The notes under the pieces: generated by a model | Database searches by the model: none | Seen by the model: the letters and a program-made list of their open reading frames with translations, nothing else | What the model was told of the DNA's origin: nothing | Shown: positions 1 through 44,098 of the stretch, in pieces | Layout of the letters: each line of letters starts with the position of its first letter | Position numbering within the stretch: position 1 is the first letter of the stretch | Assembly (NCBI GenBank): GCA_963575745.1 | Contig: CAUYUJ010000078.1 | Span: 1-64,000, forward strand | Direction of reading: 5' to 3' | DNA length: 64,000 bases | Source of the DNA: Prorocentrum cordatum | Taxonomy: Eukaryota | Program-made: the position numbers and the translations under genes

Positions 1-2040
1 CCTGCACCGCTTCCGCGGCGATCGGCGCGTCCTGCGCGCCACGCGCCGCCGCGGAGCCCCGACCCCGATGCCTGCAGGGCGGCGCCTCGTCGGACTCGGA
101 GTGCGCGATCTCGGCTTCTGCCGCCAGCACCATGGCTCGCGTCTTTGCGGCCGGGTACCTGTGCGCCGCCAAGCGCCGCGCCCTCGCGACCCAGGCAGCG
201 CGGCCGTGCCCCCTGTCGGAATGGAGTGCCCGAACGCGGCCACAGATCTCCAACCCCCTTCGAAGAACAGCGCTGCAGGCCCCCCGGTGCGGAGTGCCTG
301 TGTGCGAGAGACACGAACTGCGCGCGGGCCCTGGGTAGGCAGGGGACGGCAAGGGGAGCCCATGCCTGGTCGGCCCGGCCGCGCCTGAAGCAATGCGTCC
401 CCCACTCCAATGCCCTATGGAGCCCGAGGTGGGCAGCGGCGAGCATGACGCAAGCCAGCCCGTCCACGTAAGAGACGCCCGGCAGGAGCTGCTCGCCGGG
501 CCGGAGCGAATGCCGAATGATGCAGACCGCACACAATCGTTTGCCCTGGAGCTGGCATACGCATACCCTCCAGACCTCGCGATACGGGGAGCCCGGGGCG
601 CGCCCCGCCGCGCGCGCGCGCTCGGCCCGCCGGGTCGGGAGCTACTCTCCCCTTCCGCTGGCGGAATTGCACCTGCACCTGGTGCTTTCCTTCGTCTACG
701 TGGAGCGAGACGGCTCTATGCCCAGGCGCATTCAGCCCCACTACTTCGGAGCCGAAGCGCAAGCAGAACTGCCAGCATATGACGAAAGCGTCGGCCATAT
801 CGCCGCGTCCGATCTGCCAAACGCCAGGCCCGCGGGCCGGCACGCACGGCAGGCCGCTTGAAGAGCGCGCGGCCGCGCCTCGCGCAGCCAATCCGACATC
901 GCGCGCACGTTTTCGGCCGTGGCGCGCGCGCGAAATCTTTGCGCACCAGGCGGTTCCGCCTGCCGCCGATATCATGGGCTCGCGGCCGACGCGCGCGGCG
1001 GCCGTACCTTTCGGGCACCGAATACCAGGGCCCGCGTGTCCGCCAAAGACCCTGTGTCTGCGCGGAGCAGATGCAGGACTGAGCGAATGCCCTGCAAATA
1101 GTTCGACAGGGTCCCCGGGCGGCGACAGAGCGCCACCATCATGTCCCGCGCGATGGCGCACGGCACCCAGGGCGGGACGCCTGCCGCATCGCACGCCTGG
1201 CCGTACAACTCCACCGCCGAGGCATACGGGTATGCCGAGAGCTTCCACGCGCGGAATTCTCGCCACAGCGCGGCCATCTGGATGCGGCGCATGCACTCCA
1301 GTCCTGCTCCTGACACCCGCAATTCCTCGGCGCGCCGACGAGGTGTTCCTGGCACCCGCCGCACGCCGATGTCCTGCCTCGCGCGCACCTCCCGCGGAAT
1401 GCCGCCTTCGCTTATGAATATCGCGGGCGGAACCTGGAGTTTCGTCAGCTGGCGGATTGCCTCTGCCAGCATCGGCGGCGCTGGTACCTCCGCGCCGCGC
1501 GCGGTGCACGAGGACGGTGGCGCCGCGCGGTGGTGCCTGCCGTGCCTGCCTTGCCGCTGACAGCAACGCGAGGGCTTCTTGAGGCGTCAAACCCCCGCCG
1601 GGCCGGCGTTTCGCGCGCAAGCCCGGTGCCGGCGCCGGGCACTTGGCCGCTTTCTCGAGTAACGTTTCCGCCGCCTTCGCGCCCACGGGTCAGCGGGCGG
1701 CGGCCGGCCTTGCTTGCTCCGCCGGAAGGGGCGGAGTTGCGCGCGCGCGCTCGACCTGGGAGAGCGATGCCGCTGCATCGTCCTCCCGGGGCCGCTTTGC
1801 CTTTTCGTGGGTCAGCTTGCGCGCGTGAGTAATAAGCGTCACGGTGAAGCACTCTGACCACTCCCGGAGGCACGGGAACACTTCCCTCGCCTCCTTCGCC
1901 GTGAATCCGGACAGGTCGGGGGGATACGCCGCTCCTTCGGCTGCGAGCATGGATGACAGACACTGCAGAGCTTCCGCGCCTACCGGATGCGAATCATTTT
2001 CGGGCGCCCACCGCGACGCGTGTGACAAGCACGCAAGCAT
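1..2040 (-). CDS. Tyrosine recombinase of the YR retrotransposon, about 9 predicted introns; runs off the window edge
   Basis: Catalytic signature after splicing: FCLRFGSE (R), RQRKG (K), RVCVC..LCAVC, WGTHCFRRG (HxxR), GGWRSVAAFG/Y (W, Y). Introns 1675-1755, 1488-1545 (or -1536), 1326-1388, 960-1007, 814-878, 576-630, 298-365, 159-229, 32-85. One apparent 1-nt deletion near 272. Confidence 0.85.
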
Positions 2041-2133
2041 GGCGCCCGCGGGCCCCCTCTCGCGGCGGGCCTGGTCGTCACGCGCTCGCCGCGCAAGCCT
2101 TTGCGCCCCCTACAAATTGCCCCGTGCTACTTG

Positions 2134-5100
2134 CTATGCATGCCCGCGCGAATGCCAGGGCGCCGCGCGGGGCCATGGCCACGCCACTCGGGTGAAGCCC
2201 TCGCGGTGCATGGCCGCAATCGCGGCCGCCTTCGTGGCGGGCCGCGTAGGGGCGTCTGCCACGTTGAGCGCGGATGGCACAAACCACGCGCTCAGGAGGC
2301 ACCGCGCGGTCGCTGCTGCGAACCAAATATCTGCCACGAGCGCGTTATAATCTGCCTGGCGCGAGGTCCCGCGTAGGAGCACCCCGAGCGCGGCCTGGCG
2401 CGGTCAGCGGAGCATCGCACGGGCAGCTCGGCGACCCGCGCCCAGCCGCGCCTTCGAATCGACAAACAACACGATTTCCGCATCGCGCAGCGTCGCGAGC
2501 AAATGATGCAAGGCGCAAACGGCCGCGACGAGTTCCCATGCCGCGACCTTTCGCAACACGGCGGGCTGTCCGCCAGGCTACGCGTGGCCGGGGCGCCCCC
2601 GCCTGCGTCTTGCGGTGCTTCGCCCACCGCTTGATCGACGAAGGCACATCAGCCGCTGCATAGCGCTTACCGCTGGGCCCAATGATGACCCACGCGAGCC
2701 TGCGGAGGCGGGGCGGGCCGGGCAATGCGGCCGCCGTTCCAACAGGCGCGCGCGCATGTCGCCTGCCGCCGCCCGTCGCGTCGGAATAGACGAGGTAGCG
2801 TGGCCGCTCCGGGGTCACCCGCAGGGGCGCCGCTCGTTCCGGCGCGCTCCGGAGGAAGCGCAGCCACCATTCCAATGCCCCGCGGAGCCGCGACTTCAAC
2901 CTCCAACCCCGCTGCTGCGCGTGCCAGAACAGCGGGGCGAGGTATACCCGGGCACCTGCCGTCGCTCTCGCGCGCGCGCGTCGCTCGCGCGCGGGAGCTT
3001 GGGCGTGCCTCTGCCGAACACCGCAGTGGAGCCCCATCCGAGTCTGAGTCTGCCGTCGAAGTTTTGCGATATGCCGAGCCTTCGCCTGTCGAAACATTCT
3101 CCACTCCTCGAAGTCAACCTCACTCGATCTCGTTGTTTCACACTGTGGCGCCTTGTCAGCCAACTTCGCTTCCCAACGATACTAACGAGAAATATGAAAA
3201 TACAAGAAAAACAAAAACATAAAAATAAAAAAAAAATAAATAGAAAATAAATTAAATGTACAAGAAAAAAATAACATAACGAAAATCAACAAATAAAAAA
3301 AAAAAAAAAAAAAAAATAAAAAAAAAGAAGATAATAACATACTAAATAAAACGATATAGAAAAGTAAAAAGATAAATAAAGTAACAAATGAAAACTGAAT
3401 ACAAATTAAAAAGAATAAATAGCTTCATCTATACCCCTGCCACGCACTTTGCCACGTCGACGCCAGAGCACAGTGCCCTCGGCCTCCAGGCAACAACGAG
3501 CGGCTTCTGCCGGCGTCAGCGCCAGCCCAAAAAGTCTTCGACGACCGCCCTCAGGACCTCTGCGGCATCGCGGGGGCCGCCCGTGCCGGGCCCCCTGTCC
3601 GCGTCGGCCCGGAACAGCTCGTCCACGAATCGGCCCGAAGCGAGCGAGAACAGCTTGGCAAGGATGGCCTGCCGCGCTCGCGGGGCGCTCGCCGCGCCGC
3701 CGCGGCGCTCGCGCCTCGCGCCTGGAGCGCCGCCCCAACGCGGTCCCAAGCGTATCCGCTGCCCACGGCGCCGAAGGGGCAGCTCAAGAGTTGCAGACAG
3801 TAGCCCTCGCGGGCTCCCTTGGCCCATACCGAATGGGCCAACGGGAGGTCGGCGCCTCGCAAGGGCAACGTTTTGTAAGCACCGATGAAATCTTCTTTGC
3901 TCAGCACCGGCGTGCCGGCCGCGGCCGCGATCCGCGCCAGCTCGACCAGAGCATCGAGAGAATCCACCCTACGCGCGGTCGCGGCGACACGGGAGAGCGG
4001 ACAGCGCGCGCGAGGGGCGGGGGGGGGGGAAAGGGCCCGCCTGCACCTCTCGGCTGCGGCGGCGCAGTCATTAACGCCCGCGGCAGTGAAATCGTCGATC
4101 GCGCGCACCTGGACGCGTTGGCTCCCGGCGCGGCGCCCAGGGGAGGGGACGATGCATGCCGCGGCGAATGCGCCATTCCTTGCGTATCCATTCTTCCAAC
4201 TTCCAGCGCCATCCCTCGTCTACAGGGAATCGCGGGTTTAACGCCGCCCCGCGTGGCAGGTCGGACAACCGGACCCACGCTGCCTGGCCCGCGGCCACCT
4301 GCGCGCTCGCGGACGTCGCAGCATGGGCGACTGTCCCCGCTGGCTTGCGCGGCGCGCGCCTCTTCGTATGCTTTTTCATGCAAAATCTGGGTGACTTCCG
4401 CGTCGGTCCCCAGATCCCGAGACACGCGCTCGAGGGTGGCGGCGTTCAAAGTGTCCGCTCGGCTGCGCAACTCGGATGGGCATTCGGCTCCCTTGGGGGT
4501 CACGGGCGCGTTCATGCCCGAGCGCGGCAGGACCCCCACTAGCGGGAAGCCCCGCTCCATGTCACGCGTCAAATTCACGTCGGACGCCTCAAGCACGGAG
4601 CCGCGCCCCGCTGTCGCGCGCGCGCGCTGCGTCGCTGGTCACCCCTGCAGCTTGCATCATTTCGGCCAAAAGCAACAAGTTCTTGTCAGGCCCAAGGACG
4701 GAGCGCACATGCCATGGTAACTTCGCATAGCGTGCCTCGCCCGACCGCGCTCTCCGCCGGTGCTTCGCGGTAGCGGCGTGCCGGGCGGCGCCTTCCATTC
4801 TGAAGCCGTCACTCGTTTGCGCTCTCGCCAAAATTGCAACGCCGCCTCGCGCCTCTCTTGCAAGAGTGCGTCGCTCGTCTGGCTCGCCGCCACCGCCGCA
4901 TCGCGCTCAGGTCCCGCAAGCGGCGCTATCTCGCGGACTCGCGGCAAGTGTGCCGCCCAGGCGGCGTGGCAAAGAGGGCTCATGCCCGCCCTCTTGTCTT
5001 CGTCGTCGAGCAACGCATCCACGGCGGCTTTGATCTGCGCGCGCGCGCTTCGCGGCTCCGCCCCCGTAGAGTGGCGGGCAAGGGCCTCTTCAAATGCGCA

Positions 5101-5400
5101 GCCGGCATCGTGGATTTGCTGGGGGCAAAGGCCGCCGCCCCCGCCTTCGGCGCCGTCGTCGGAATCAACATCCGCGTCCTGCGCTGCGCTCGCCGCGGGC
5201 GGGGCGGTCTCGCGCGCGGCGCACTGGCGGCGCCTCCTGCCCCTCGGGCGACGGCCCGCGCCACACTGCGCCCTCACCGCTGTCGGCAGGGTGCAATGGG
5301 GAGGCCCCGTCGTCTGCATCACTGGCTGGCGCGGCGCCCCCGCGGGGGGGCGCGCGCGCGCGCGCGCGGAGCGCGCCTCGGGCGGGCGAATAATTAGCAT
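2134..5400 (-). CDS. Reverse transcriptase-RNase H of the YR retrotransposon, at least 10 predicted introns; damaged around 3020-3600
   Basis: Spliced motifs: GFPLVGVLPRSG, PRFPV, K/VRAIDDFT, SKEDFIGAYKTLP, CPFGAVGSGYAW, FVDE (YxDD site, variant). RNase H: YSDATG, WELVAA, LFVDSK/AAL, WFVPSALNVADAPTR. Introns 4736-4791, 4588-4642, 4299-4359, 4109-4178, 3969-4040, 3669-3721, 2956-3008, 2700-2762, 2548-2602, 2395-2451. Start position approximate. Confidence 0.85.
3175..3430. other. A-rich low-complexity patch interrupting the RT region
   Basis: Abrupt switch from very high GC to A-runs; frameshifted RT sequence on both sides. Confidence 0.7.
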
Positions 5401-5422
5401 GCACAGCGCCGGCGCCCTGGCT

Positions 5423-7215
5423 TCACCACCGCCAGGACTCCTTTCGCTCAGGCTTGTGCCACGAGCTCCCCGCGTCCTTGGGAGCCCCTCCCTTGCCGGC
5501 CTTTCCGCTCCCCTTCTTGCTGAAGGTATCGCGGCGGGGGCTGCGCGAGCGCTGGCGGAGGACAGGGCTCACCGGGGTCCGTGGCTTCGCAGCCTCGCGC
5601 GCCGCGACGCGTGCTCGCGCTCGCGGGGCGCGCGCGCGCGGGCTCGCGCCTGGTCGCGCCGGTCGCTGCCGCCTTTCTTGCCCCCGCCCTTGGCGAACGC
5701 CGCCTGGCGGTCCGACTGCTGGACTCTCTCCTACAGCGCGCAGCGCGATGCACGATGCCAGGGCGGCGGCCACTCAAAAGCGCTGCGCTCCTTGGCGGCG
5801 CGCAGAATGTCCCACGACAACGCAGTGAACGAGGCCGTCGCATCCTCGTCGCCGTGTTCCAGGTCTTTCGCCACTTTCTGGCGGAGAAGCAAATCGTACG
5901 TGTAGGAAACCTGGACGCGGCGCGGGCTCCCGCGCGCGGCTCCCTGGGCATCGGGCCCGCCGCTCCGCGGACGCGCCTTGACGCCCCCGTGCTCCTCGCT
6001 CACGCGCGCGAGCTGGTACATGTATCCCAATAGCACGACGGGATCAAACACTTTGGACAGGATGCAGCGAAGCCCCCACTCCATTACGTGGGCCTCGCGC
6101 CACGGGGCGCGCGTGGGCGCGCGCGCTGCGCTGCGTCGCGCGCGCCCTGGAAGTGCGCATAACCGAGAAAATCCATTCGGTCCAGGGCCGCACCCGCGCG
6201 GTTCGCCGCGGTGACGGCCGACGCGCGATCGCGCCACGAGCCCGCCCCCGCTGGTACCGAGTCCAGCTTCGGCATTCGCGCCCATTGGGGCTTGCAGTGG
6301 TCCTGCGCGCGGAGCAATCGGCGAAACGGAAGCTTGTCATTGCACGTGCCGCCGAGCAGGGAGCCTGCAGGCTCTCGCCCTCGGCGCTCCCAATGTATGA
6401 GCGGCCATGGGACTGGGCCGTCCGGCCCGCGGCCGCGAATTTGCGCATCGACTCCTCGGTCGGCAATCCCTCACGGGGGAACTTGCCGAGCCAGACCTCG
6501 CGCACACGGTCCTGCCGAGGCGCGCATCCCCGAACAATGCCGCCCGCGCATGCGAAAACGCGGCGCGCCTCCATGGCAAACGCCAGCGGCTTCTCCCGCT
6601 TTTCTTCGAGCAATTCCTTGCTGGCCTTCACGTATTCTTCCATTGCCGCCGCAATCCGCGTCGTCTCCTCCGCGGGCTTGGCGGCCGCCTCCGCCGGGGC
6701 CGATTGCTGACCCTCCTGGCGGCACGCCGTGCGGCGGCCCGCGTCCTCGCGCACCAACGGGGCGGGGGCCTTCCGCCCGAAGGCATCCATCGCTCGCGAC
6801 TGTGTCCGCAGCGCCATATTGATGTGGCACGGCTTAATCGCGAAATCGCGCCACTCCGCGGAAGAATCGCCCGCAAACGGCTTCGCGCCTGGCTTCAGGG
6901 CCGCAATCAACATATCGCGCATGGCCGCGTCCGAGTAATCAATCGGGCGGACCGCCCCGATCGCTTCGGCCATCAGGCGCGCGACCGTGGTGCACAGCAC
7001 CAGCTCGGGAGCTGGCGATGCGCCCCCCTCCGCCGCGTTGGCCGCTGCGACGAAGAGGACCCAATCGGCCTTGCGCGCCGCTGCGAGTGGGCTCATGCCC
7101 GCGGTAGACGCACGGAGACGCGCGCGCGCGCCCTGATGGCATTTTTGTCGGCGCCGAATGCGCCAGCAGGCAGATCGCCAAGCAACTCAACGATGTCTGA
7201 GCGAGCCAGCGCCAT
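5423..7215 (-). CDS. Gag-like protein of the YR retrotransposon, 8 predicted introns
   Basis: ATG at 7215 (MALARSDIVELL). Introns 7070-7131, 6716-6769, 6512-6568, 6303-6364, 6094-6146, 5911-5976, 5731-5790 (GA-AG, removes an in-frame TAG), 5594-5649. Spliced product contains EEHGGVK/VSYTYDLLLRQK (YD..R motif typical of DIRS gag) and a basic tail ending ESWRW* at 5423. Confidence 0.7.
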
Positions 7216-7299
7216 GGATGCTGCGCGCGCGTCGGAAAGCGCCGTGCACGTATCCCCCTCGGCGTCCTTATCGCGCGCTGGCGGTTGCACATGACATAA

Positions 7300-7865
7300 C
7301 CCGCAGGCATCCAGCGCAAGAGGGCAGGCAAACGCACGCCGCAGGCATACTGCGCACCGGGGCTGACAGGCAGCATCCGCAGGCATACTGCGCACTGGGC
7401 CGGCATACGGCAACCGCAGGCGTACTGCGTACAAGGGCCGGCATACGGCACACACTTGCAGGCATACTGCAACGCACGCAGGCATACTGCGCTATGGGGG
7501 GGGGCCGGCATACGGCACTCGCAGGCATACTGCGCTTAATGGCCGGCATACGGCGCCCACTTGCAGGCATACAGCCGCACGCGCAGGCATACTGCGGAGA
7601 GGGGCTGACAGGCAGCAATCGCAGGCATACTGCGTACAGGGCCGGCATTCGGCATTCGCAGGCATACTGCGCACAATGGCCGGCATACGGCACACACTGC
7701 AGGCATACTGCACAGAGGAACGATTGCCGGCGTACGGCATCCGCAGGCATACTGCGCACAAGGGACCAGCATACGGCGCGCACTTGCAGCACAGCGCAGG
7801 GGACAAGTGGCCGGCATACGGCATCCGCAGGCATACTGCGCACTGGGTCGGCATTCGGCCCAGGA
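7300..7865. repeat. Array of about 20 short palindromic units GCAG-GCATA-CTGC / GCCG-GCATA-CGGC
   Basis: Directly visible, e.g. at 7341, 7379, 7398, 7437, 7521, 7621, 7743, 7810. Confidence 0.85.
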
Positions 7866-7954
7866 TGACCCGTACTCATGTGTGTCCTGACCTTCGAGCC
7901 GCAAAACCGACGAGGGACGTAGGTGCTCTCCACGAAGTAGACGCGCGGACCTGT

Positions 7955-8300
7955 GGGGGAGGAGGGGGGGGGAGGAACCTGCAACGGGAGAGAGAGGCGG
8001 CGGAGCGGCCAAGCGAACGCGCGCGCGGGAGGAGGGGCGAGGGGAGGAACCTGCGACGGGAGAGAGAGGCGGCGGAGCGGCCAAGCGAACGCGCGCGCGG
8101 GAGGAGGGGGGGGGGGGAACCTGCGACGGGAGAGAGAGGCGGCGGAGCGGTCAAGCGACGCGCGCGCGGGAGGAGGGGGGGGGGGGGGGGACCTGCGACG
8201 GGAGAAAGAGGCGGCGGAGCGGCCAAGCGAACGCGCGCGAAAAACGCATCCCGCCAGCGGGACGGCCACGCGTGAGACAAATCCCATTCACCTGCGACGA
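7955..8300. repeat. About 70-bp tandem repeat, 4 copies plus a partial
   Basis: Unit ACCTGCGACGGGAGAGAGAGGCGGCGGAGCGGCCAAGCGAACGCGCGCGCGGGAGGAGGGG repeated. Confidence 0.85.
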
Positions 8301-8451
8301 GAACGCGCTCGCGGGCGCGCAGGGTGGGGATCCGCCTCAGCCGTGAATAGCCGTCCCGCAGCATTAGAGACAAGCAAGAAGATAGCAATAGGGGCCACGA
8401 CGCTCGCGCGACTTCTCCCCGCGCTCAAATGCTGCCCAGAGCCGCACATCC

Positions 8452-8758
8452 TCACTACTACTACTAACGACGACGACTAACTAACTACTGCTATACTACT
8501 CCCTACTCTACTACTACTACGACTACTTTTGTTTTTTTCAAACACTACTACTACTAACTACTACTACTACTACGACTACTACTACATATCTACTACCTAC
8601 CTAACTACTATTCACTACTACTACTACTGCTACTACTACAATACTACTACTACTAATCACGACGACGACGACCGACGACGACGACGACGACGACCGACTA
8701 TACTACTACTACTACTTACTACTAGTGCTCCTAGTGCTACTATTTCCTACTACTACTA

Positions 8759-8839
<81 letters not shown>

Positions 8840-8951
8840 GACTACTACGACTACTACTACTACTACTACTAATTAAGACTAGTACTAGTACCAGTACTAC
8901 TACAACGACGAACGACTACTGCTACTACTACGGCGACGATTACTACTTCTT

Positions 8952-9032
<81 letters not shown>

Positions 9033-9042
9033 ATACTACTAT

Positions 9043-9125
<83 letters not shown>

Positions 9126-9141
9126 ATACTACTACTACTAT

Positions 9142-9191
<50 letters not shown>

Positions 9192-9193
9192 AC

Positions 9194-9234
<41 letters not shown>

Positions 9235-9270
9235 GCTGCTACTACTACTACTACTACTACTACGACTACG

Positions 9271-9302
<32 letters not shown>

Positions 9303-9364
9303 ACTCTACTACTACTACTACTACTACGACTACTACTAGTACTACTATTACGACTACTACTATT

Positions 9365-9417
<53 letters not shown>

Positions 9418-9442
9418 GCTGCTGCTACTACAGCTACTACTG

Positions 9443-9515
<73 letters not shown>

Positions 9516-9533
9516 GACTACGACTACTACTAC
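8452..9533. repeat. (CTA)n microsatellite
   Basis: Direct inspection. Confidence 0.95.
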
Positions 9534-11149
9534 CCGCCTCCGTGCCTTGTCCCCGTCGCTCCCTGGCAACACCCCAAGATACCCTCCCGCGTTTTCTTGC
9601 CGCGCCTTCACGGCGGGTTCGCCGCCTGACAGGCTCCAGCCGCCAACCCCTGGCGGGGCCGCCGTGGGGGGAGAGATCTGCAGAAGACATCACCGCCATC
9701 ACATCATCGTCGTCTTTGCTTTACTGGAAAGCGTCGCGAAATGAGCCGCGCCTAGACGACACGTCAAGAAATGACTTTAAACAAAGACCACGAAAAACAT
9801 GAACACCCAAGTGACCGATTTTCTCGTTCCCGGGTAACGGTTGTTACCCTGGGGGGGGGGGTCGGGCGGGAATGTCACGGTGACGGCGGCAGCGGCGTGC
9901 ACCCGCCAGGGTGCGTCCGCGCCACCGGCGCATCAATCGCCTGTGCGCACCACAGCATGTAAGAGGGGGGTCCAGGCCCCCCCCAGCACGATGGTTAGCG
10001 CTACACGGGGGTGGGGTCGGCCCGGGCAACGAGCGTTACCCTGAGGAAAAAAAAATCACCAGAAGAACGCAAGCGCGCCGGTACACGGACACGGCACGCG
10101 GACGACTGCTGTGCGGCGGGTGGCACTGCAATGTCATGGTAAACATGCAGGTTAAAACAGGGCTAGGATCGGGATAAATCGCTCCAGAGCGTTCCGGAGC
10201 GCTCTCAGAGCGTTCTGGAACGCTCTGGAGTGGCCGCGGCGCCCAATACATCCTCCAAACCCCCTAATTCTCAGAGATTTCGAGTTATCCCGATCCGATT
10301 TTGTCCCGATCTTCGCGTCGTCTTAAGGGAGGGGGTCGACCGACCGGCCCCCGTCGGCGCGCCGGCCACGGCGGCGACGTCACCCGACGACACGGGGCGC
10401 TGGCCAGGCTGCGGAGGCGGCGAGCCGCGGCGGGCTGCGGGGTGTTCGGCCACGTCGTCGAGTGGACAAGGGATGCCCATGCCGAGTACGACGACTAGGC
10501 CAGTGGCGCGACCGCCGAGGTGGAGCACCACTTCATCGGCGACGGCGTCGAAAGCATCGAGGAGCGCCGGCATCGACGGCGGGACCTTGCTGGCCCCAGA
10601 GGGCGACGCTGCCGGTGAAGGACGGGCGCAGTGGCGGCTCGCCAGCATCCCGAGATTCCCTGTCCTGCGGGCCGAGGATCCGCGGTCGACGGGTGCCACC
10701 GTGGAGATCGAGAATATCGAGAAAATGCCGCAGGCAAAGTCCGCCGTGAAGACGGTCGATGTGCGCTGCCCCGGAGGGTTCCGGTGGGGCCTGGGCGAGA
10801 GGCTTCTTCTCTCTCGTGGCTGGTCAGGGGGGGGTGGGTCTAAAACTGCTCGTCTCGAAGGGTTGTGACCCCCCCCCTTCAATAATACGAATTTGGAGCA
10901 GCGAAGTGGGCCGTGCGGCGCCCCTGTCGGCTCGTCGGGGTGCTTCTGAAGCGGGAGCGGAGCCCTGCGAAGACGGCGGTGGTCAATGACTGTCACTGTG
11001 GTTGCAGCCAGCTCTGTGCCACGTCGCTGGCAAAACGTAGAATCATTGAGTCAGAATTGTCATTGTCCACGTCCCCGTCGTCCGAATACACATTGTCGCC
11101 CGCGTCCTCGTTTTCGTCGTCATCCTCGTCCTCGCCATCACATTCGCCA

Positions 11150-11445
11150 TCCTCCTCCGCCTCCTCCTCCTCCTCCTCCTCCTCCCTCCTCCCCTCCTCC
11201 TCCCTCCTCCTCCTCCTCCTCCTCCCCTCCTCCTCCTCTCCTCCTCCCTCCTCCTCCTCCTCCTCCTCCTCCCTCTCCTCCTCCTCCTCCTCCTCCTCCT
11301 CCTCCTCCTCCCTCCTCCTCCCTCCTCCTCCTCCTCCTCCTCCCTCCTCCTCCTCCTCCTCCTCCTCCTCCTCCTCCTCCTCTTCCTCGCTCCCGCCTCA
11401 TCCTCATCGCCGTCGTACTGCTCCTCCTCCCCCTCCTCCCCCTCC
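11150..11445. repeat. (CCT)n microsatellite, 5' flank of LINE A
   Basis: Direct inspection. Confidence 0.9.
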
Positions 11446-11543
11446 AGCTGCCATCTGGACCCAAGAGATTGTCAGGGCAGCAGACAAACACTCACCGCCA
11501 TTCCACAGCATGTGGAGTAAGAACTAACTGGGCAGAGGCCCGC

Positions 11544-14500
11544 ATGGCGGCAACGGCATGGACAGCGTCGTTGGCCCTGCTGCTATTCAACCCGCTCTCC
11601 GCGAAGCCCGACAGGCAGCAGGAAATCATCGAGGAAGCGGCCAACTTCGACGTCATCATCCTCGCAGGTACTCAACGATGGCGCCGAGAACTTCATCCCG
11701 AACAGCGTCGAATTCAGGGAGCCAGAGTGTACGACGCAGGCTGGAGGACGGGAACACTCACCAACCGCAGCACGGGCATGATGATAGCGCTCCAGGGCAA
11801 ACTAAGAGGAGCGCAGGTGATCAATGTTCTGGAGCCTCCAGGGGAACTTTGCGGCAGAGGCCTCGCACTTCAACTCGTACAGTACGACACCCAGATCACG
11901 ATCGTCAGCTACTATTGCCCGCCGCAGCCCAAGACCACGGCAGACCGCAAGCACTACTTCGCGACGGTGGCAAGATTATTCAAATGGATGGACGAGGTAG
12001 CAGCCAAACGCCCCAGGGGCAGCCTCCTCTTCACGGCAGGGGACCTCAACGACGGCATAGGCATCACGTGCAAGAACGAACACCCGAAGAGCGACTCGCT
12101 TGGAGCGGGCAGGGCGAAGGAGAAACTACCAGGCGGAGCGGGGCACAAAGCCAGACAGTACGCGGAGCGACACGGACTGACAGTCACCAACACGACGGGC
12201 ACATGGAGACCCACTTTTTTCGGGGAAACGACGGCCAGCTGTATAGACTACATCATGATGCCGACGACGCTGGCAAACAGCATCATCTCTCAAGGACCAC
12301 TCCTCCGCATGGGCACACGGCTGCAACACATTCGTAGCCGACGACATCGAGATCACGTCCCAGTGCAGCTCACAGTTCGTATTCCACTTCGGCAAAGAGT
12401 ACAAGCCCGACAACATACAGCACGATGGGATAAAGACAAACTGGCAGCGGCAGCACGCAAGGGACTACACGCAGAGTTATTCATCCAGGATCTGGAAGGA
12501 AAAGTCGCGAACTACAACGAGCACGGCAAAGGCATAGACCAGCTGTTCCAGAACTTGAATCAGATGATCATCGAAACGGCTCAACAGTATTATGGACAGG
12601 GACAACAGAAACCTGAGGAGTACCAGATACTAAGGGACAGACGAATGGAACTATTAAAAAGACGAAGAGACCTTCGAGAGCAACTACGACGCGAAGGAGA
12701 TAGCCTACTCATCAAGATCGCAGACTCGACCAAGCTGGACACAGCCAAGGTAGACTACATTCCAAGGGAAAATCCGACCAACAACCCCTACGCGCAGAAC
12801 TCAGACCAGCCAGGAGCAGAAGACGAACTCGATTCCCGCCGCCTACGACTGGACTACGTCGAGACCGAACTCAAGAACATCACGGCTACCTGCGCAGCCT
12901 GGCGCAAACTCGAGTACCAGCGGAAGACGGACGCCAGGGTGGAGGAGCTGTACGAGGCATGGGAACGCCGAGATCTTGCACGCGTGGGCCGACTGTCAAT
13001 ATTGATTGCTGGCGGAAGATATGGACCACGCAAGCGCGACTACTGGACGATGGTCACAGCCAACCCCACGAAGCAAGAGTGGACCGATTTCTGGCAGCTC
13101 CCAGGTGGATCAGGAGGTATGGAAGGCACAGGACTGAATAGAGAAGAAATTGAACATATTCCCATTGACGCAGATGAAATGGACTATTATGATAACGACA
13201 TAGAAGAACTTGTGGAGACAGATATGGAGGGCATTGCTAAACGGGTAAAAAAGGCTAAACTCCGACGTGCGGCACCACCGACAGCGGCCCCCAACGAGCT
13301 ATGGAGAGTGCTCCTTTGTCAGACAGACGAACAACCTCAACAGCAAAGACAAGGATTGGGGGCACTCCAACCACTTCCTCAGCCAGAAGGATTTCAAGAC
13401 CTCTTCAGGGCGGCACTGGCGGCCATCAGACTCAAGAACGCAACTCCAGTACGATGGCATCAGAGCGCGACAACAGCAGTCAAGAAGAACAACAAAGCGG
13501 GCCCTGCAGGAAAAAGGATATACCACATCATGGACCCGATCGGCAAGGCATTTTACTCATCCTGCATGGCTCGACAGAAGGCTCAGACTCACACTGACCA
13601 GGACTACGGCTTCATTAGAGGACGACGACGCGAAGGAGCCATATTGGCGATGGCGGTCGTCGAGTATCGGCAAGACAGGCAGGCTTCAATTACATCACGA
13701 CGATGAAGGACATGTCGAACGCCTTTGCCAGCTGCGCGTGGACAGCCATGGACGAGGCCAACAACAAGATCATGCCAGAAGACTCTACTGAGTTGGGAGC
13801 GCAGCGATACCGACGAGCTACGTTTGTCATACCATGTCGCGATCAGGAGGACGGAGTTTGCATCAAGCCACACTGTGGAGGACTGATAGGAGACCCGTAC
13901 ATGGTCAGTAACTTCGTGGCCAGCTTCTCGACGTGCATCAAGAACTGGATTGAGGACTGCAACAAAGAGTTAAAGAACGATGATCTGTTGTTTGGGAGCT
14001 GTGAGATATTTCAACATCCAGTTTACTTGGGACTGGCTAAGTATGCGGACGACCTTCGCAAGATCATCCTAGGTGACAAGCACGCAGATGCAGCAGATCT
14101 GGCAGCGCAGGCACACAAAGTGGACAACGCGCTCAACCAGAGGCTCGACGCGATCGGGATGCGCCAGAACGCAGACAAGCAGGAGAACATCGTCTACTTC
14201 CAAGGACAAGGAACGACCAAAGCACACCAGCAGCTCAAGACGAAGCCCGATTGCAAGCTACCTGGCAAAGTTGTTCCACATGCACGATATCTTGGACCAC
14301 AGATCAGCCCGACACTGAACTATGGGGCAGAACTCAACAAGCGAATCGCGGCCATGAAAAAGAGTTACAACGAATGTGGCAGCTTCTGGACTAAAGGGCA
14401 TATACCATACAGGTGGAAGCGAGCGGTCCTCATCTGCAGGGTGATCAACACAGGCCTCTCGTGCATCGAATGCTTCTTGCCGACGCCCAGAGAGTACCAG

Positions 14501-16453
14501 CAGCTACAGAGCGTTATGGGCGCACTACTTCGGCGAGCCATGCGAGGAGGCGCCACACGTCACAGAGACGGCAGCGTGCGGAGCCTTAGCACGCTGGAAG
14601 TATTTCGCTATTGGCAAATATTGCCGCCAGCGGAGGAAGCACTGGTGCGCCGACTCGGATGGTTCAAAAACATCCTTCGCTTCCCTAGCAATCACAGGCA
14701 GTTGATCGTAGCACTATTCGGGAGGGTCGAGTTCGAGACAAACGAAGACGAGGACAAACTCAGGACCGACACGAATCCCTGGGCTCAGAGGTTCTTGGAG
14801 GACGTCAGATACGCGTGTGGGGTCTCGGAGAGCTACTACAACACGCTAGGCGAGGGCGAGAACGTCACGATAGATAGGCTCTTCACTCTAGACGTTAGGG
14901 AACAACTATATCTACTTGATGTTCGGGAAGTTCGGGCAGCAAAACTCGGAGTGGCGGTCCCCCCACCAGGCTACACACAGCAAGATGTCCAAAGAGAAGA
15001 GCTAGCTTTAGAAGAACAGAAGCCATGGAAATGTGAACTTAAACACGGAGAAGCAGAATGTGGTCTATTATTCGCAAGCAAGAAAGCACTACATAGCCAT
15101 ATTATTCGAGCACATAATGTACACAACTTAGCAGCGGTGATGACATCAAACAACGAGTGCCTGAATTGCCAGCAAGTAATTACAAGCAAAGGTACGGCAT
15201 GGAAACATCTGGCAAGCAGTATGATCAAAGGAGGATGCAACAGAGACAGAACAAAGAATCAATATGTTCCGACGGCACAGTCTCCGCAATGCCCTCTCTG
15301 TAGTCATTTCTCTCTCGACAAGGGTGCGCAATTCATACACTTACGTACGCATCTCCCGCGACAACTCCTACAGCCGCCAAGAGGGATACGCCATGTCGCT
15401 GTTCGACCAGAGGCCATTGGGCCAGGCTCCACCAGGCCCAGCAGGAGGGGGCGCAGTCCGACGAGAGGATCGCAGCCGCCAACGAGGTCCAGTGCTACGC
15501 GGACCAGCGGTCGGCGGCGGAGGCAACCAGCAACAGATCACGGAGCTCACGGCGAGACTCACGCTCACGGTGGCACGAGAGCAAGCAGAAATGGCGGCGG
15601 CACTCATCCAAACTTGGGAAATCGCCACGTCGACGGGTATCGCTACCACGGCCCTCGGAGCGGGCAAGCACTACAACGACGAGGCGCAGCAGCTCCACCA
15701 GAGGCAGCGAGGCGGAGAACAAGTCGACCTAGGCAGCCTGGGCAGCCCGCACGTGAAGGTGTGGACGGAGACGTGCGCCTACCTGGGCAAGCAGCTCGAG
15801 GAGGGCGGACAGCTCAACGAGGTGAAGAGCCACTACGAGAACATTATGAAGAACGACACGGAAGCCCTCGCGGACATAGTACCAGTGTTCAGGGTCAGGC
15901 GCAACAAGGGCAAAGAGGGCGGCGGGGTCGAGAAGTGCCGATTCCAGTTCAAGTTCGGAGAGAGCAACCACCAGCTGTGCACGGTGCTGGTCAACCAGCT
16001 CAAGAAGGAGGGCGCCACTCGCAAGATCGGGTCGGCACCGAGGGGCGCCTTGGAGAGGGAGCTCGGCCGCCTAGTGAACGGATAGTCGACTTCGGCACGA
16101 TAGAGGAGGCGAACCTAGAGGATACGACCGCACGAGATCTACACCTGAGAGATGAGGAGGAGGAAAACAGTGTTCGAATTCGCCCAGTCCTTCCCCCACA
16201 GCTTCCCCAGGCCATCCCACGAGTTTTTGAGAATAGCGCCAGGTTCCGTGAGATAGTCAGGTCTGGACGTCTCCCACCTCCTCCTTCTCAGAATGCTGTG
16301 CCCGAAATCTTCCAATTCGATGGCCCACGTTTTCCTCAGTATTTACTAATGCACCGACCTCCCCCCCCTCCCGAACCGAAGCGTAAGGGACGAGGTAAGG
16401 GTAAACGGAGCCAGCGAAGCCAACAGCAGCAGCAGAGCGAACGACCTCCGTGA
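11544..16453 (+). pseudogene. APE endonuclease-reverse transcriptase-C2H2 zinc-finger polyprotein of LINE A with one frameshift (~13670)
   Basis: EN: FNPLS, DVIILAGT, AGDLND, CIDYI, RDHVPV. RT: DYGFIRGRRRE, KDMSNAF, GGLIGDP, KYADDL, RYLG. Three C-terminal C2H2-like fingers. ORFs 11544-13706 and 13703-16453 join as ...RQAGFNYITTMKD with a 1-nt indel. Confidence 0.9.
15393..16085 (+). CDS. Extra 230-aa ORF overlapping the 3' end of the LINE A RT ORF (+1 frame), function unknown
   Basis: ATG at 15393 (MSLFDQRP), protein-like composition, ends GSAPRGALERELGRLVNG*; a counterpart is present in LINE B. Confidence 0.75.
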   Translation: MSLFDQRPLGQAPPGPAGGGAVRREDRSRQRGPVLRGPAVGGGGNQQQITELTARLTLTVAREQAEMAAALIQTWEIATSTGIATTALGAGKHYNDEAQQLHQRQRGGEQVDLGSLGSPHVKVWTETCAYLGKQLEEGGQLNEVKSHYENIMKNDTEALADIVPVFRVRRNKGKEGGGVEKCRFQFKFGESNHQLCTVLVNQLKKEGATRKIGSAPRGALERELGRLVNG

Positions 16454-39690: not shown

Positions 39691-42600
39691 TCTCGTCTCG
39701 TCTCGACCCCATTCAAGCAAATCTCCATGGACGGCGATGGCTGCTCTGGGTTGGGGTTGACATCTGTGTCTCCCCTCTCTCAAACTGCTGTGCGCGGGAG
39801 GCCTGCTGCGCGGCTGGCGCAGGCGACATGCGCCTCGATTGGCGCCCGCACGGGGGGCGCGCTAACGGGGCGCCCGCCAGACGGGGAGAAGCGTTACTCC
39901 AGGAAGTCCGAGAGCAGAAAAACGACCCATTTGGAACGAAAGGGGTCGTTTTCTATGATTGCGAAAAAAAGGCACGAGCGACTTCCTCCTCGGCATCATT
40001 GAGGTCAGGTGGGGCCGCGCTGCCAGTGTTGGAGCTGCTTCCAAACAGGCGACGAGGTGGGCGAGCGCTGCCCGAGGTCACGGACGGGCGGGGGGACCTA
40101 GGAGGACTGTCTAAACCAGGCGGTGGCCTCACTCGATGGAAACTCACTTGCCCTTCCTGCCGCCTCCGATGCGCCTGGCCAAGTTCCCCCTCGGTGCCTT
40201 GTTGACTAGGTGGCGGCCTCCTGCCGCGCGCATCTGCTCCGCTAGGAGCAGGTCGATGTCGATCATGTACCCCTTCATCTGGTAGACGGTGGTGGGGGTC
40301 TCGTTGGGGCTCACCTGCTTGATCGCGTCGTCGGCGCCATCGAGCGCTGCCATGAGCTTCTCGTGATCCGCCGCTTCCGCGGCCATGAATATCTGTCCTT
40401 TGAGGCTGAAAGTAAGGCGTGACTTCTGGGCCTTGCCTGGCGCGTCGTAGGTTGGGTTGGCCACCATCTCCTGGATCCATGTCTGCGCTGTCGTGGAGCC
40501 CCCGACCTCGATCATCCTCTTGAGGCGCTTGATGCACATCGTGCAGGCGGCCCTCCGCTCTGAGGTACCCTTGTACTCGTAGCTGCTCAAAACGTCGAGA
40601 ACCGCGAAAGCACTCTGGCACGCGGGGGTGGCGTGGTCCTGCTGGGGGTGGTCCTTCTGCTGCTTGAGGAACCGCTGGAACGCGGCGTTGCTCTCTCTGA
40701 TGCACGGGTGGTTGCGATCGAGGAGCACGGTGGTGAACCCCTGGTGCTCGATGGCGCGCATCCTGGCCTCGAGCTGGTACACCAGGTCGCGAAGTGGGCC
40801 TGCTGTCTCCTCGCTGTCGTCCATGCCCTCGTCCTCGTTGCCGTTGTGCTTCCTCTGCTTGCGCTTCTCCTGACGGTCTGTCCCGCTCCCCTTCTTGTGT
40901 AGGATCCAGTCGGCTGCGGGCGCGGATGCGGCCGCCTCGCCACTCCCTCGCGCCGCCATGGCCAACTCCCTGAGGCTCTCGAACGTGGAAACTGGGCGGG
41001 AGGTGGCGCTTGATGTGTGCGGCAGCGTGATCGAGATAGCTGGCTAAGGAGTCTTGTTCCTCGAAACAGACAGGGCATTCCAGGCTCTTGGGTTCGATCA
41101 TTTTGTCCCCGTATCTCACTCGGTTCTTGGGGCAATAATTCCGTCGCATGCTTGCCGCCACGTGGTGCACTGCGCTGGCGCGATCACGGAAGACGCTCTG
41201 ACAGATCGGACACACGTTGGTTATAGTGAGTACTCGGCCGATGTGCAACTGCCCATGCGACCCCCCTCGAGAATTGGCGACGCGCGCGACCAACTGTTTC
41301 CTACTGGGCCAGCAAGTCCCGCATATCATGCCATCGTCCCACGTCTCCTGGCACACGAAGCTGCCCTCCCCCCTCTCCCTGTCCTTCTTCCTCTCCTCAT
41401 CCTGTCCAGTGTAGAACACCGACCTGAGCTCATCAACATCTATCTTGACAAACTGATCTGGATCGTCGAACAATATGGTGTGAATGTTGTTGTTAGTGAT
41501 GAGTTCCTGCCCGCTCTCCGTCTCGCGCAACGCCAGGATGTCCTGCTGCGCTTGTCGCGCCCATGGGTTGCTGTTCTCATGTACGTAGCCCTCGCGAAAC
41601 ACCCCCCCCCCCCCCCATCGCATATCATACTGCCAAAGACTGCCGACAAGTATTGTGCATGATACTCTTTTCGAGCAACCATTGTCCGAAGCCATTTAAG
41701 ACGCCTGATCCGAAGCTCCAAGAATAGACTGGCCATTCTGAACTTCTTAAGAACCTGCAGGTTGCTATCCGTGATAATGTGCGTGTCATGCTCGTTCATG
41801 CGTGCAGTACCTTGTAGCATGCCTCTACATTTACTCAGTATGTAGCTCTGATGTGGCTGGAGGTCTCGTGCGCGCAGCGGGCCTCCCTCATGGACACATA
41901 CCTCCAGTCCTGACAGCGCGGCGTTCACGAGAAGTCCTTTTACGACGTTCCTCTTGACGGCGAACGGGGCATCACTAGACCAAAACCCTCCCATACTGTG
42001 AAATCCTGCTTTTAGAGCTGCAAGTCGCTTCTGAAGTTCGGGAAGGGGGGAGAAGGTAGACGACTGGAGGCCTCCAAGATACCTGACATGGTGAGCGACT
42101 TTGCCGTCTAACCGATGTTTGTCCCTGGAGAAGACCCTGTTTGTGGCATGCGCCCCCCACCCAGCCAGATAGCACACGTTTTCCTCTTTCTCTAGATTCT
42201 GAGACGCGCCTATCTCGTGTAGTCCAGTGTCGAGCGCTGTGTTCTCGATGGTACCTCCTCTCTCCAACTGCTCCTGCATGCTGCCCTCCCCAACCTCTAA
42301 GACCTTGGTGGCGATATCATCTACGAAGCCCGTGATGCCTACCTGCTCCTCTTCCGCTGGCCACGGAGGACTCGTCTCCAGGACGACGTGCCACTGGTTC
42401 TCTAATGCCGCATCAGCATATCTTGCGAACGGGGGGAGATAGGTCCTGTTGAACAACTTCGCAGCGCCTGTGTCCCCTGGAAAGACGCCCCTGGTGGCCC
42501 GCATCCAGAAGTCCCCTGACTCATCCGAGATGTTAACTAAATTGCGCTTGACCCGATCTGTGATGAACTGATGGTCCTGGGGGTCGTAGCAGTCTTGCGC

Positions 42601-43850: not shown

Positions 43851-44062
43851 CAGGAGGAGGAGGAGGAGGAGGACGCAAGGAGGAGGAGGAGGAGGAGGAC
43901 GCAAGGAGGAGGAGGAGGAGGAGGAGGAGGGGGAGGGGGAGGAGGAGGGGGACGGGGGGGGGGGAGGCGGTGGGGGGGGGGCGAGGAGGGGGGGAAGGGG
44001 GGGCGGGATGGGGGGGGAGGAGGAGGAAGAGGAGGAGGAGGAGGAGGAGGCCGCTTCTCCTT

Positions 44063-44098
44063 ACCGTAGCCATATTGCTCAAAGCCATGTGGTTCAAA
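44063..44098 (+). other. Tandem spliced-leader relicts
   Basis: ACCGTAGCCATATTGCTCAAA followed by GCCATGTGGTTCAAA; the first 11 nt are identical to SL. No convincing ORF downstream. Confidence 0.8.

What the first reader, a model, noticed from the sequence alone, without database searches (positions are those of the whole stretch)
1..7215. Tyrosine-recombinase retrotransposon carrying about 27 spliceosomal-type introns across gag, RT-RNase H and YR
Seen: the fragmented minus-strand ORFs join into three coherent proteins when 48-81-nt segments ending in AG are removed. Many removals are forced because they fix a frame change or delete an in-frame stop (e.g. 5731-5790, 2395-2451, 1675-1755, 960-1007). 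Splicing also reassembles catalytic motifs: RNase H D-E-D-D, and YR R-K-HxxR-W-Y with the Tyr on the exon after intron 159-229. Established: retroelements copy through RNA and normally lose introns; retention is known only in a few groups such as Penelope-like and some YR elements. Inference: either a family that replicates from unspliced RNA while expressing proteins from spliced mRNA, or an element that now moves as DNA via its YR, or a domesticated and intronised copy.
Basis: partly seen in the sequence, partly recalled or inferred. Interest (0 to 1): 0.95.

Follow-up and report, generated by a model that had tools for sequence, protein, structure and literature searches.

The report
Intron-rich tyrosine-recombinase retrotransposon copy
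A jumping gene of the kind that copies itself through RNA and inserts with a tyrosine recombinase has its genes broken up by at least 18 short, conserved introns, which such elements are expected to lose each time they copy themselves.

Summary
The core observation holds. On the minus strand of 1-7215 lies a gag-like ORF, an RT-RNase H gene and a tyrosine-recombinase (YR) gene. I verified 18 interruptions of 48-81 nt in pol and YR: 13 GC-AG, 4 GT-AG and 1 GA-AG. Intronless relatives align colinearly across 10 of them. An 87%-identical metagenome copy (L001) shares 17 at the same places and lacks one precisely. After removal, both copies read open. dN/dS is 0.16-0.18. Introns diverge faster than exons (16.9% against 9.9%) and carry the frame-breaking indels. 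67 of 68 splice-site bases are conserved. The gag introns (about 8) have no comparative support.

Three corrections. This copy's RT is broken: 3047-3518 holds an in-frame TGA, an AT-rich block and a probable frameshift. Other genomes carry intact sequence there. The element's 5' end is near 8443, not 7215. Its 3' end lies beyond the window.

It fits a divergent DIRS-order, Ngaro/SymbioDIRS-like family. Most relatives are uninterrupted, but one sub-group shares an intron position.

No RNA evidence or per-genome copy number could be obtained. Whether it moves with its introns, moves as DNA, or is domesticated therefore stays open. I favour intron-retaining retrotransposition.

The parts
8409..8443 (-). 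5' terminal direct repeat (A1), lying next to the (ACT)n microsatellite at 8454-9533
   Evidence: The last 34 nt of L001 lie about 220 nt after its YR stop. They match 8442-8409 at 97%, in the same orientation. This is the only match of the L001 tail in the 64-kb window (E 1.4e-11).
7216..8408 (-). 5' untranslated region holding two tandem-repeat arrays
   Evidence: TRF finds a 72-nt unit x4 at 7957-8239 and 37/105-nt units at 7301-7859. That this region belongs to the element is inferred from the A1 repeat at 8409-8443.
5423..7215 (-). gag-like ORF1 (ATG 7215-7213, TGA 5425-5423), interrupted by frame changes and stops
   Evidence: Frame map and sequence. No Pfam hit. No second copy is available, so the introns here, including 5790-5731, are unverified.
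2135..5073 (-). pol: RT (about 4108-3520) and RNase H (about 2955-2135); the stop is TAG at 2137-2135
   Evidence: Colinear spliced alignment to the uninterrupted relatives P0026 and P0031. The same genes are intact in L001. Relatives give weak RVT_1, RT_RNaseH and DNA_pol_viral_C hits.
3047..3518 (-). aberrant segment of this copy: in-frame TGA 3518-3516, AT-rich block 3185-3430, probable 1-nt frameshift near 3050
   Evidence: A contig of run X8 joins 3046 to 3519 with 197 other letters in between. Loose ends of X1 at 3519 and 3046 encode the intact motifs seen in L001 and P0006.
1..2040 (-). tyrosine-recombinase gene (ATG 2040-2038), 9 exons; the stop lies about 15 nt beyond the window's start, as seen in L001
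   Evidence: The spliced frame is open for 507 codons in both copies, with R-K-HxxR-W-Y at canonical spacing. dN/dS is 0.16. The atlas gives Phage_int_SAM_1 at 0.96 for exon 1346-1008 and YR-clan leads for exon 575-366.
4736..4791 (-). intron, 56 nt, GC-AG, phase 0
4588..4642 (-). intron, 55 nt, GT-AG, phase 0
4299..4359 (-). intron, 61 nt (65 in L001), GC-AG, phase 0
4109..4178 (-). intron, 70 nt; GA donor in the window, GT in L001 (63 nt); phase 0
   Evidence: The boundary is set by comparison with L001.
3969..4040 (-). intron, 72 nt, GC-AG, phase 2; absent precisely from L001 and L002
   Evidence: P0006 and P0055 read into an intron at this place.
3669..3721 (-). intron, 53 nt, GC-AG, phase 0; its position is shared by distant relatives
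   Evidence: 9 of 102 family representatives break exactly here.
2956..3008 (-). intron, 53 nt, GC-AG, phase 1
2700..2762 (-). intron, 63 nt, GC-AG, phase 2
2548..2602 (-). intron, 55 nt, GC-AG, phase 0
1675..1755 (-).
1488..1545 (-). YR intron, 58 nt, GC-AG, phase 0; 1536-1488 is an equally legal alternative donor
1349..1405 (-). YR intron, 57 nt (59 in L001), GC-AG, phase 1
   Evidence: Spliced alignment to P0119.
960..1007 (-).
814..878 (-). YR intron, 65 nt (54 in L001), GC-AG, phase 0
576..645 (-). YR intron, 70 nt, GT-AG, phase 0
298..365 (-). YR intron, 68 nt (58 in L001), GC-AG, phase 0
159..229 (-).

Best explanation
Shown: this is one copy of a divergent DIRS-order (Ngaro/SymbioDIRS-like) retrotransposon. 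It carries gag, RT-RNase H and YR genes and has a direct terminal repeat. Its pol and YR genes are split by at least 18 short, GC-rich, mostly GC-AG spliceosomal-type introns. These introns are older than the split between two lineages of the element. The spliced reading frames have stayed under purifying selection since then.

Inferred from that: the proteins are made from fully spliced mRNA.

Inferred mechanism: the lineage keeps its introns because the RNA that is reverse-transcribed is unspliced or only partly spliced, much as retroviruses set genomic RNA apart from spliced mRNA. Now and then a partly spliced template yields a copy that lacks one intron exactly. New introns are added in a host that uses GC-AG introns heavily.

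Shown for this window: the copy here has a wrecked RT (in-frame stop, AT-rich insertion, FVDE in place of FVDD) and is probably not autonomous.
For: Genes and family.
- 102 relatives of the RT exon were found at E<=1e-3.
- Long uninterrupted relatives of 570-740 aa align colinearly over 5073-2155.
- 12 of 23 relatives scanned give RVT_1 at E<=0.01, and 3 of 23 pass Pfam's cut-off.
- One representative (P0013) is a Prorocentrum cordatum protein. Symbiodinium DIRS RTs are reported to fit Pfam poorly and to have an A-coding-B-A-B repeat layout (PMC5890265 passages).

Introns.
- L001 gives an intact RT-RNase H after removal of 9 GT/GC-AG introns, at the same places against three different references.
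- 17 of the window's 18 introns are shared with L001, and 67 of 68 boundary bases are conserved. The binomial P is 5e-5 against the intron divergence rate.
- Exon divergence is 9.9% (333/3378) against 16.9% (170/1003) in introns.
- There are 19 gap events in introns against 8 in exons. The exon gaps are 3 or 12 nt long, compensate each other within a few bases, or sit at an intron boundary or at the end of an aligned block.
- dN/dS is 0.18, 0.16 and 0.16 over 388, 226 and 502 codons, with no stop in either copy.
- In the signal control, none of 40 random signal sets reaches the real score.

Mobility hints.
- The terminal repeat is 97% identical (34 nt) between the window's 5' end and L001's 3' tail, while the two copies are 87% identical overall.
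- Intron 4040-3969 is missing exactly at its splice junction in L001 and L002, yet P0006 and P0055 read into an intron there.
- 20 of 77 informative family representatives are interrupted within one 33-aa stretch, and 9 of the 102 representatives break at the window's 3721-3669 position. The 7 of those that entered the tree all fall in one 13-row group.
- P0117, listed under a transcriptome-derived EukProt set, reads straight through two YR introns.
- DIRS-1 can produce cDNA from unspliced RNA for some cassette positions (PMC7192593 passages).
Against: - No junction read or transcript of any kind was obtained for this element.
- Copy number per genome is unknown. There is one copy in 64 kb. 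No flanks, target-site features or insertion polymorphisms were seen.
- The laid contigs stop inside the element, so they say nothing about the locus.
- Keeping some 25 introns unspliced in a template RNA, while also splicing all of them for translation, is mechanistically demanding and has no precedent.
- Most relatives (57 of 77 informative) are uninterrupted in the stretch tested. The lineage must therefore have gained many introns, which is easier to picture for a resident gene.
- P0117 could derive from genomic DNA carried into that data set.
- The exact loss of one intron could also come from microhomology (AGG at both ends).
- The A1/A2 repeat rests on 34 nt, is cut off by the end of L001, and compares two different copies.
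- The YR catalytic exons give no Pfam or PDB sequence hit.
Confidence: 0.55

Rival explanations
1. Domesticated or immobilised locus. An old DIRS-like insertion became a resident, vertically inherited gene set. It then gained introns like any host gene in an intron-gaining genome. The related 'copies' are orthologues in sister species or strains.
For: - Purifying selection on all spliced ORFs fits a host gene.
- The uninterrupted majority of relatives implies many gains in this lineage.
- Introners are reported to add tens of introns to single genes in some marine protists (PMC12130899 passages).
- 13 of 18 introns are phase 0 and sit at AG|G sites.
- There is only one copy in the window.
- L001 and L002, from two metagenomes, are 99.5% alike, as one species' orthologue would be.
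Against: - Joint domestication of gag, RT-RNase H and YR is unheard of (my knowledge).
- A terminal repeat is conserved at 97% between lineages whose introns differ by 17%.
- The element keeps a transposon-like 5' region with tandem repeats.
- This copy's RT is broken while other genomes keep it intact, which is odd for an essential gene.
- The family shows several distinct intron-bearing lineages in many samples.
Confidence: 0.22
2. The element now moves as DNA. The YR excises and reinserts the intron-containing DNA, as Cryptons do, so the introns are never exposed to loss.
For: - The YR is intact and under selection, with all candidate catalytic residues.
- Crypton-type YR transposons and their relatives commonly carry introns (PMC13465315 passages).
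- The terminal repeat is conserved.
Against: - RT and RNase H are under the same purifying selection as the YR (dN/dS 0.16-0.18), which DNA mobility would not require.
- One intron is lost exactly at its splice junction in L001, which points to an RNA step.
Confidence: 0.1
3. Decaying pseudogene. The interruptions are ordinary insertions, frameshifts and stops, and no splicing takes place.
For: - In 70% G+C DNA many G[TCA]..AG pairs exist at any junction.
- This copy really does carry a stop, an insertion and a frameshift in its RT.
- No RNA evidence was obtained.
Against: - The same 17 interruptions, with conserved splice dinucleotides, occur in an 87%-identical copy.
- Once they are removed that copy is fully open and the frames show dN/dS near 0.17.
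- Random splice signals fit worse in 40 of 40 trials.
Confidence: 0.03

Closest known systems
Ngaro-like / SymbioDIRS elements of the DIRS order (tyrosine-recombinase retrotransposons with split direct repeats; PMC5890265, PMC13465315)
   Same: - The gene order is gag, RT-RNase H, YR.
- No methyltransferase, protease or DDE integrase domain was detected.
- The RT is too divergent for Pfam, as reported for Symbiodinium DIRS, and one family member is from the dinoflagellate Prorocentrum.
- A 5' repeat recurs downstream of the YR, as in the A1...B1-A2-B2 layout.
   Different: - Described members are intronless single-exon genes.
- Here there are at least 18 (perhaps about 27) introns across the ORFs.
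- The B2 repeat and the 3' end were not seen.
- The YR catalytic domain does not reach Pfam Phage_integrase.
Penelope-like elements (the retroelements known to retain introns; PMC8557442)
   Same: Both are retroelements that keep spliceosomal introns through their spread.
   Different: - PLEs carry one or a few introns, mostly in the 5' UTR.
- They use a GIY-YIG endonuclease and a telomerase-like RT.
- Here the introns are many, lie inside all coding regions, and the integrase is a YR.
Cryptons and Crypton-derived genes (YR DNA transposons; PMC13465315, PMC3212892)
   Same: Both have a YR with an N-terminal SAM-like domain, an intron-containing YR gene, and atlas leads to DUF3504, DUF3435 and QRICH1 clusters.
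   Different: Cryptons have no RT-RNase H or gag. Here both are present and under selection.
Retroviruses and LTR elements with spliced subgenomic mRNA (recalled, no paper read here)
   Same: The proposed logic is the same: unspliced RNA serves as the genome and spliced RNA as the message.
   Different: Those have one or two splice events that separate ORFs. Here some 25 small introns lie inside ORFs and must all be removed to read any protein.

Membership tests
DIRS order (YR retrotransposons) | Reverse transcriptase and RNase H of the retroelement type | tested here: met
   Colinear alignment to relatives carrying RVT_1, RT_RNaseH and DNA_pol_viral_C hits. The D-E-D-D residues and FVDD box are present in L001. 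The window copy reads FVDE and has a stop.
DIRS order (YR retrotransposons) | Tyrosine recombinase in place of a DDE integrase | tested here: inconclusive
   For: candidate R-K-HxxR-W-Y residues at spacings 24/98/25/8 (the XerD and Cre spacings they are compared with are recalled). The atlas gives Phage_int_SAM_1 at 0.96 for the N-terminal exon and YR-clan leads at 0.79-0.86 for a catalytic exon. Against: no Pfam or PDB sequence hit on single exons. The spliced protein could not be submitted to Pfam.
DIRS order (YR retrotransposons) | Terminal structure: ITR+ICR (DIRS1-like) or split direct repeats A1...B1-A2-B2 (Ngaro/PAT-like) | tested here: inconclusive
   An A1/A2-like direct repeat of 34 nt at 97% was seen across two copies. 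The 3' end is outside the window and L001 ends inside A2, so B1/B2 was not seen.
DIRS order (YR retrotransposons) | Methyltransferase domain (present in DIRS1-like and PAT-like, absent in Ngaro-like) | tested here: not met
   Pol ends about 60 codons after the last RNase H Asp. No Pfam hit was found on any ORF. This fits Ngaro-like elements, not DIRS1-like.
DIRS order (YR retrotransposons) | Dispersed multiple copies or evidence of transposition | not testable with these tools
   No genome is held. There is one copy in 64 kb. Run X6 shows several sequence variants, up to 10 contigs per variant site, but copies, alleles and strains cannot be told apart.
Spliceosomal (U2-type) introns | GT/GC...AG boundaries within an AG|G exon context | tested here: met
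   17 of 18 introns are GT/GC-AG and 1 is GA-AG (GT in L001). 15 of 18 upstream exons end in AG and 17 of 18 downstream exons start with G. None of 40 random signal sets fits as well.
Spliceosomal (U2-type) introns | Removal restores a conserved reading frame; introns evolve faster and tolerate frame-breaking indels | tested here: met
Spliceosomal (U2-type) introns | Spliced junctions observed in RNA | not testable with these tools
   No RNA data for the element could be laid.
Introner-type (transposon-derived) introns | Introns are near-identical copies of one family found elsewhere in the genome | tested here: not met
   The introns share only (GC)n runs of 11-18 nt with each other. They have no copies elsewhere in the 64-kb window. 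The rest of the genome was not searched.

The most novel reading that the evidence does not exclude
A lineage of DIRS-like retrotransposons transposes from unspliced or partly spliced genomic RNA, yet needs about 25 splicing events to express gag, RT-RNase H and YR. This would be a retrovirus-like split between genome and message on a scale never described. Introns would be gained inside the element, inherited through transposition cycles and across deep family divergence, and sometimes lost one at a time when a partly spliced RNA is copied.
Probability: 0.4. Interest if true: 0.9.

Novelty: new variant of a known kind. Interest (0 to 1): 0.82.

Why it matters
Retrotransposition through RNA is expected to strip introns. 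That expectation underlies the use of intron loss as the signature of retrocopies, and it underlies intron-tagged retrotransposition assays.

A retroelement family with dozens of conserved, selected introns would matter either way:
- If it is mobile, it shows a new way for a retroelement to separate template RNA from mRNA. It would also be a natural system for studying how nuclear RNAs escape splicing.
- If it is not mobile, it documents wholesale domestication of a complete gag-pol-YR unit.

There is also a practical point. Such elements are invisible to ORF-based and Pfam-based transposon annotation, because the raw ORFs here gave no hit. Repeat content in GC-rich marine protists may therefore be under-annotated.

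Tried and rejected
- RNA evidence: no RNA holder was listed by the look-up of sequencing runs. The one run guessed to be RNA (X21) laid nothing. Neither result says anything about expression.
- Own genome: none is held. The genome search on L001's record was not possible.
- Pfam on 14 raw ORFs gave nothing usable. Pfam at E<=10 on 4 YR exons gave no family.
- PDB phmmer on exon 575-366 gave none.
- The search for homologous proteins with the catalytic-exon ORF, set to longer proteins, gave none.
- Scans of viral contigs and genome contigs found no relative.
- Earlier findings of this scan held nothing on this genome or sequence.
- Host identification: Rfam gave no hit. Pfam on 73 other window ORFs gave only a Copia-type RVT_2 and two low-complexity hits.
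- A conservation-only gene-model dynamic program and a codon-usage ab initio splice predictor placed boundaries imprecisely. The ab initio predictor got 4 of 8 YR introns exactly. I did not use either for gag.
- AlphaFold2 on the YR N-terminal exon with a 14-row alignment gave mean pLDDT 53.6. That is too low for a fold search, so none was run.
- A low-depth X1 joint at 161->229 ('between: not known') looked like an intron-less form. It is equally explained by a diverged intron that fails the 85% likeness threshold, so I did not use it.
- I first read contig continuity across 7215 as showing a single-copy locus. I withdrew that once the 5' end was placed near 8443.
- Six literature searches found no description of an intron-rich DIRS or Ngaro element. 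Subscription journals are not covered. That includes the Goodwin and Poulter reviews of YR retrotransposons, which I did not see.
Full report
**What is in the sequence.** The first 7.3 kb of the window is about 70% G+C. Its minus strand shows protein-like stretches that hop between frames. No raw ORF gives a usable Pfam hit (0 of 14). No second copy lies in the 64-kb window, and no genome is held for it.

**Family.** I ran a full HMMER search with the 222-aa ORF 4219-3554.
- It found 102 proteins at E<=1e-3 and 27 at E<=1e-10.
- The long hits (570-743 aa) are uninterrupted ORFs.
- 12 of the 23 I scanned hit RVT_1 at E<=0.01, and 3 of 23 pass Pfam's cut-off. Two hit RT_RNaseH weakly and two hit DNA_pol_viral_C weakly.
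- One representative (P0013) is a Prorocentrum cordatum protein.
- This weak fit to Pfam matches what de Mendoza et al. report for Symbiodinium DIRS elements. Those have an A-coding-B-A-B repeat layout and are intronless (PMC5890265, passages only).

**Introns in pol.** I wrote a protein-to-DNA aligner with intron states.
- P0026 and P0031 align colinearly to 5073-2155 once short GT/GC..AG segments are skipped.
- A metagenome scan returned L001 (5130 nt) and L002. These are 87%-identical copies of the window element and 99.5% identical to each other.
- L001 gives a complete, stop-free RT-RNase H after removal of 9 introns. The introns fall at the same places whichever of three references is used.
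- Control: with real GT/GC+AG signals the score is 1308 with no frameshift. 40 random two-donor, one-acceptor signal sets reach at most 1283, so none of 40 matches it. With no introns allowed the score is 486.

**Introns in YR.** I placed these using P0119, a 55%-identical relative that lacks the first three YR introns, together with the window-L001 alignment.

**The verified set.** There are 18 introns of 48-81 nt: 13 GC-AG, 4 GT-AG and 1 GA-AG (GT in L001). 13 of the 18 are phase 0.
- 17 are shared with L001.
- 67 of 68 boundary bases are conserved, with P about 5e-5 at the intron divergence rate.
- Exons differ at 9.9% (333/3378) and introns at 16.9% (170/1003).
- Introns hold 19 gap events and exons hold 8. 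The exon gaps are 3 or 12 nt long, compensate each other within a few bases, or sit at an intron boundary or at the end of an aligned block.
- Spliced frames have no stop in either copy. dN/dS is 0.18 (388 codons), 0.16 (226) and 0.16 (502). The two wrong frames of the second block give stops and dN/dS of 1.6-2.3.
- The frames obtained by removing the interruptions have therefore been under selection since the two lineages split (dS about 0.3). That implies the interruptions are removed from the mRNA.

**YR identity.**
- The spliced YR is at least 507 aa in both copies.
- Its candidate catalytic residues are R325, K349, H423, R426, W448 and Y456, at spacings 24/98/25/8. The XerD spacings of 24/96/26/9 that these resemble are recalled, not looked up.
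- The 113-aa exon 1346-1008 scores 0.96 to Phage_int_SAM_1 clusters in the ESM atlas, with recognition 2632.
- Exon 575-366 draws only YR-clan families, but at 0.79-0.86, so that is a lead only.
- Sequence searches on single exons find nothing.
- An AlphaFold model of the N-terminal exon was too poor to use.

**Corrections to the finding.**
1. This copy's pol is not coherent.
   - 3047-3518 contains an in-frame TGA (3518-3516), a 240-nt AT-rich block and a probable frameshift.
   - The RT box reads FVDE where L001 and P0006 read FVDD.
   - In run X8 a contig joins 3046 to 3519 with 197 other letters in between.
   - X1 loose ends at both edges encode the intact motifs seen in L001.
   - The lesion is therefore specific to the window's genome, or it is an assembly fault.
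2. 7215 is the gag ATG, not the element's end.
   - The last 34 nt of L001 lie about 220 nt past its YR stop. They match 8442-8409 at 97% in the same orientation, and nothing else in the window.
   - This looks like the A1/A2 pair of split direct repeats (layout as described in PMC13465315).
   - It places the 5' end next to the (ACT)n array.
3. The 3' end lies beyond the window.
4. The gag introns are unverified. Each junction offers many legal G[TCA]..AG pairs by chance.

**Intron history.**
- Intron 4040-3969 is absent from L001 and L002 exactly at the splice junction. P0006 and P0055 read into an intron there, so loss in the L001 lineage is the simpler reading.
- Across the 102 family representatives, 57 are contiguous from PFG to xVDD and 20 are interrupted within that 33-aa stretch. 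9 break exactly at the window's 3721-3669 position.
- In a quick tree, which is poorly resolved (91 columns), the 7 of those 9 that entered it all fall in one 13-row group. The label is clustered that tightly in 8 of 500 shuffles.
- P0119 lacks YR introns 1-3 but is broken after the GARK exon.
- Introns have thus been gained, inherited over deep divergence, and lost singly.
- They are not an introner family. They share only (GC)n cores with each other and have no copies elsewhere in the window.

**Host.** The host is unknown.
- 20 runs from 14 studies hold part of the element. Most are marine metagenomes, plus three coded organisms.
- The dominance of GC-AG, with an occasional GA donor, resembles what is reported for Emiliania huxleyi: 56% GC-AG junctions, with one GA junction verified (PMC4028052 passages). 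It also resembles dinoflagellates, but that comparison is recalled.

**Mechanism.**
- Shown: the elements carry conserved introns and selected spliced ORFs.
- Inferred: the lineage spreads while keeping the introns.
- Supporting hints: the conserved terminal repeat, the single exact intron loss, the family-wide spread of interrupted members, and P0117. P0117 comes from a transcriptome-derived protein set and reads through two YR introns. DIRS-1 work also shows that cDNA can arise from unspliced RNA (PMC7192593 passages).
- Against: there is no RNA, copy-number or flank evidence. Run X6 holds several variants (1408 contigs laid, up to 10 per variant site), but these could be copies, alleles or strains.
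- Domestication and DNA-level YR mobility remain live rivals.

**Literature.** Penelope-like elements are described as highly unusual among retroelements for retaining introns (PMC8557442 passages). Six searches found no intron-rich DIRS or Ngaro element.

Noticed in passing
window 8454-9533 and 11150-11445: Very long trinucleotide arrays: (ACT)n of about 356 units, directly abutting the element's inferred 5' end, and (TCC)n of about 97 units.
   Followed up: no
window 60075-62876 (-): A 933-aa open frame with a Copia-type RVT_2 hit (E 2.2e-8). It is a second, uninterrupted retrotransposon in the same window, in contrast to the intron-rich element.
   Followed up: no
window 10950-16453 (+), 41440-44211 (-), 52729-55509 (-): Several open frames of 900+ codons with no Pfam family (for the first two; the third was not scanned). 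The window looks repeat-rich and poor in recognisable host genes.
   Followed up: partly
window 3185-3430: An AT-rich, low-complexity block of about 240 nt lies inside otherwise 70% G+C coding sequence. It is absent from the corresponding contigs of runs X1 and X8. Similar low-G+C stretches occur elsewhere in the window, for example 50001-51000 and 53001-55000.
   Followed up: partly
L001 5083-5130: A 9-bp inverted repeat (GACTTCTC... / ...GAGAAGTC) brackets the start of the A2 repeat in L001. Only its right arm is present at the window's A1. It may mark a recombination site.
   Followed up: no
window 1-158 versus L001: The last YR exon and the 3' end are the most conserved part between the two copies (94.3% against 85-91% for other exons). 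A possible extra in-frame intron at 85-32, predicted ab initio, is 96% conserved. This may reflect a cis-acting 3' sequence.
   Followed up: partly
window introns 4642-4588, 3008-2956, 1755-1675, 645-576; also 5616-5631 and 5352-5383: Several introns, and two gag/pol-N-terminal stretches, share a (GC)n core of 11-18 nt. No branch-point-like or pyrimidine-rich tract is evident in these 71-91% G+C introns.
   Followed up: partly
protein P0117 (cluster of P0001): A fragment at least 90% identical to a sister lineage of this YR is filed under a prasinophyte transcriptome set in EukProt. Either that alga carries the element or the data set holds foreign sequence.
   Followed up: no
proteins P0084, P0057, P0033, P0065, P0070: Other members of the RT family are interrupted at different places, for example right after PFGxxG or just before RYVDD. 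Intron gain in this family may therefore have been recurrent.
   Followed up: partly
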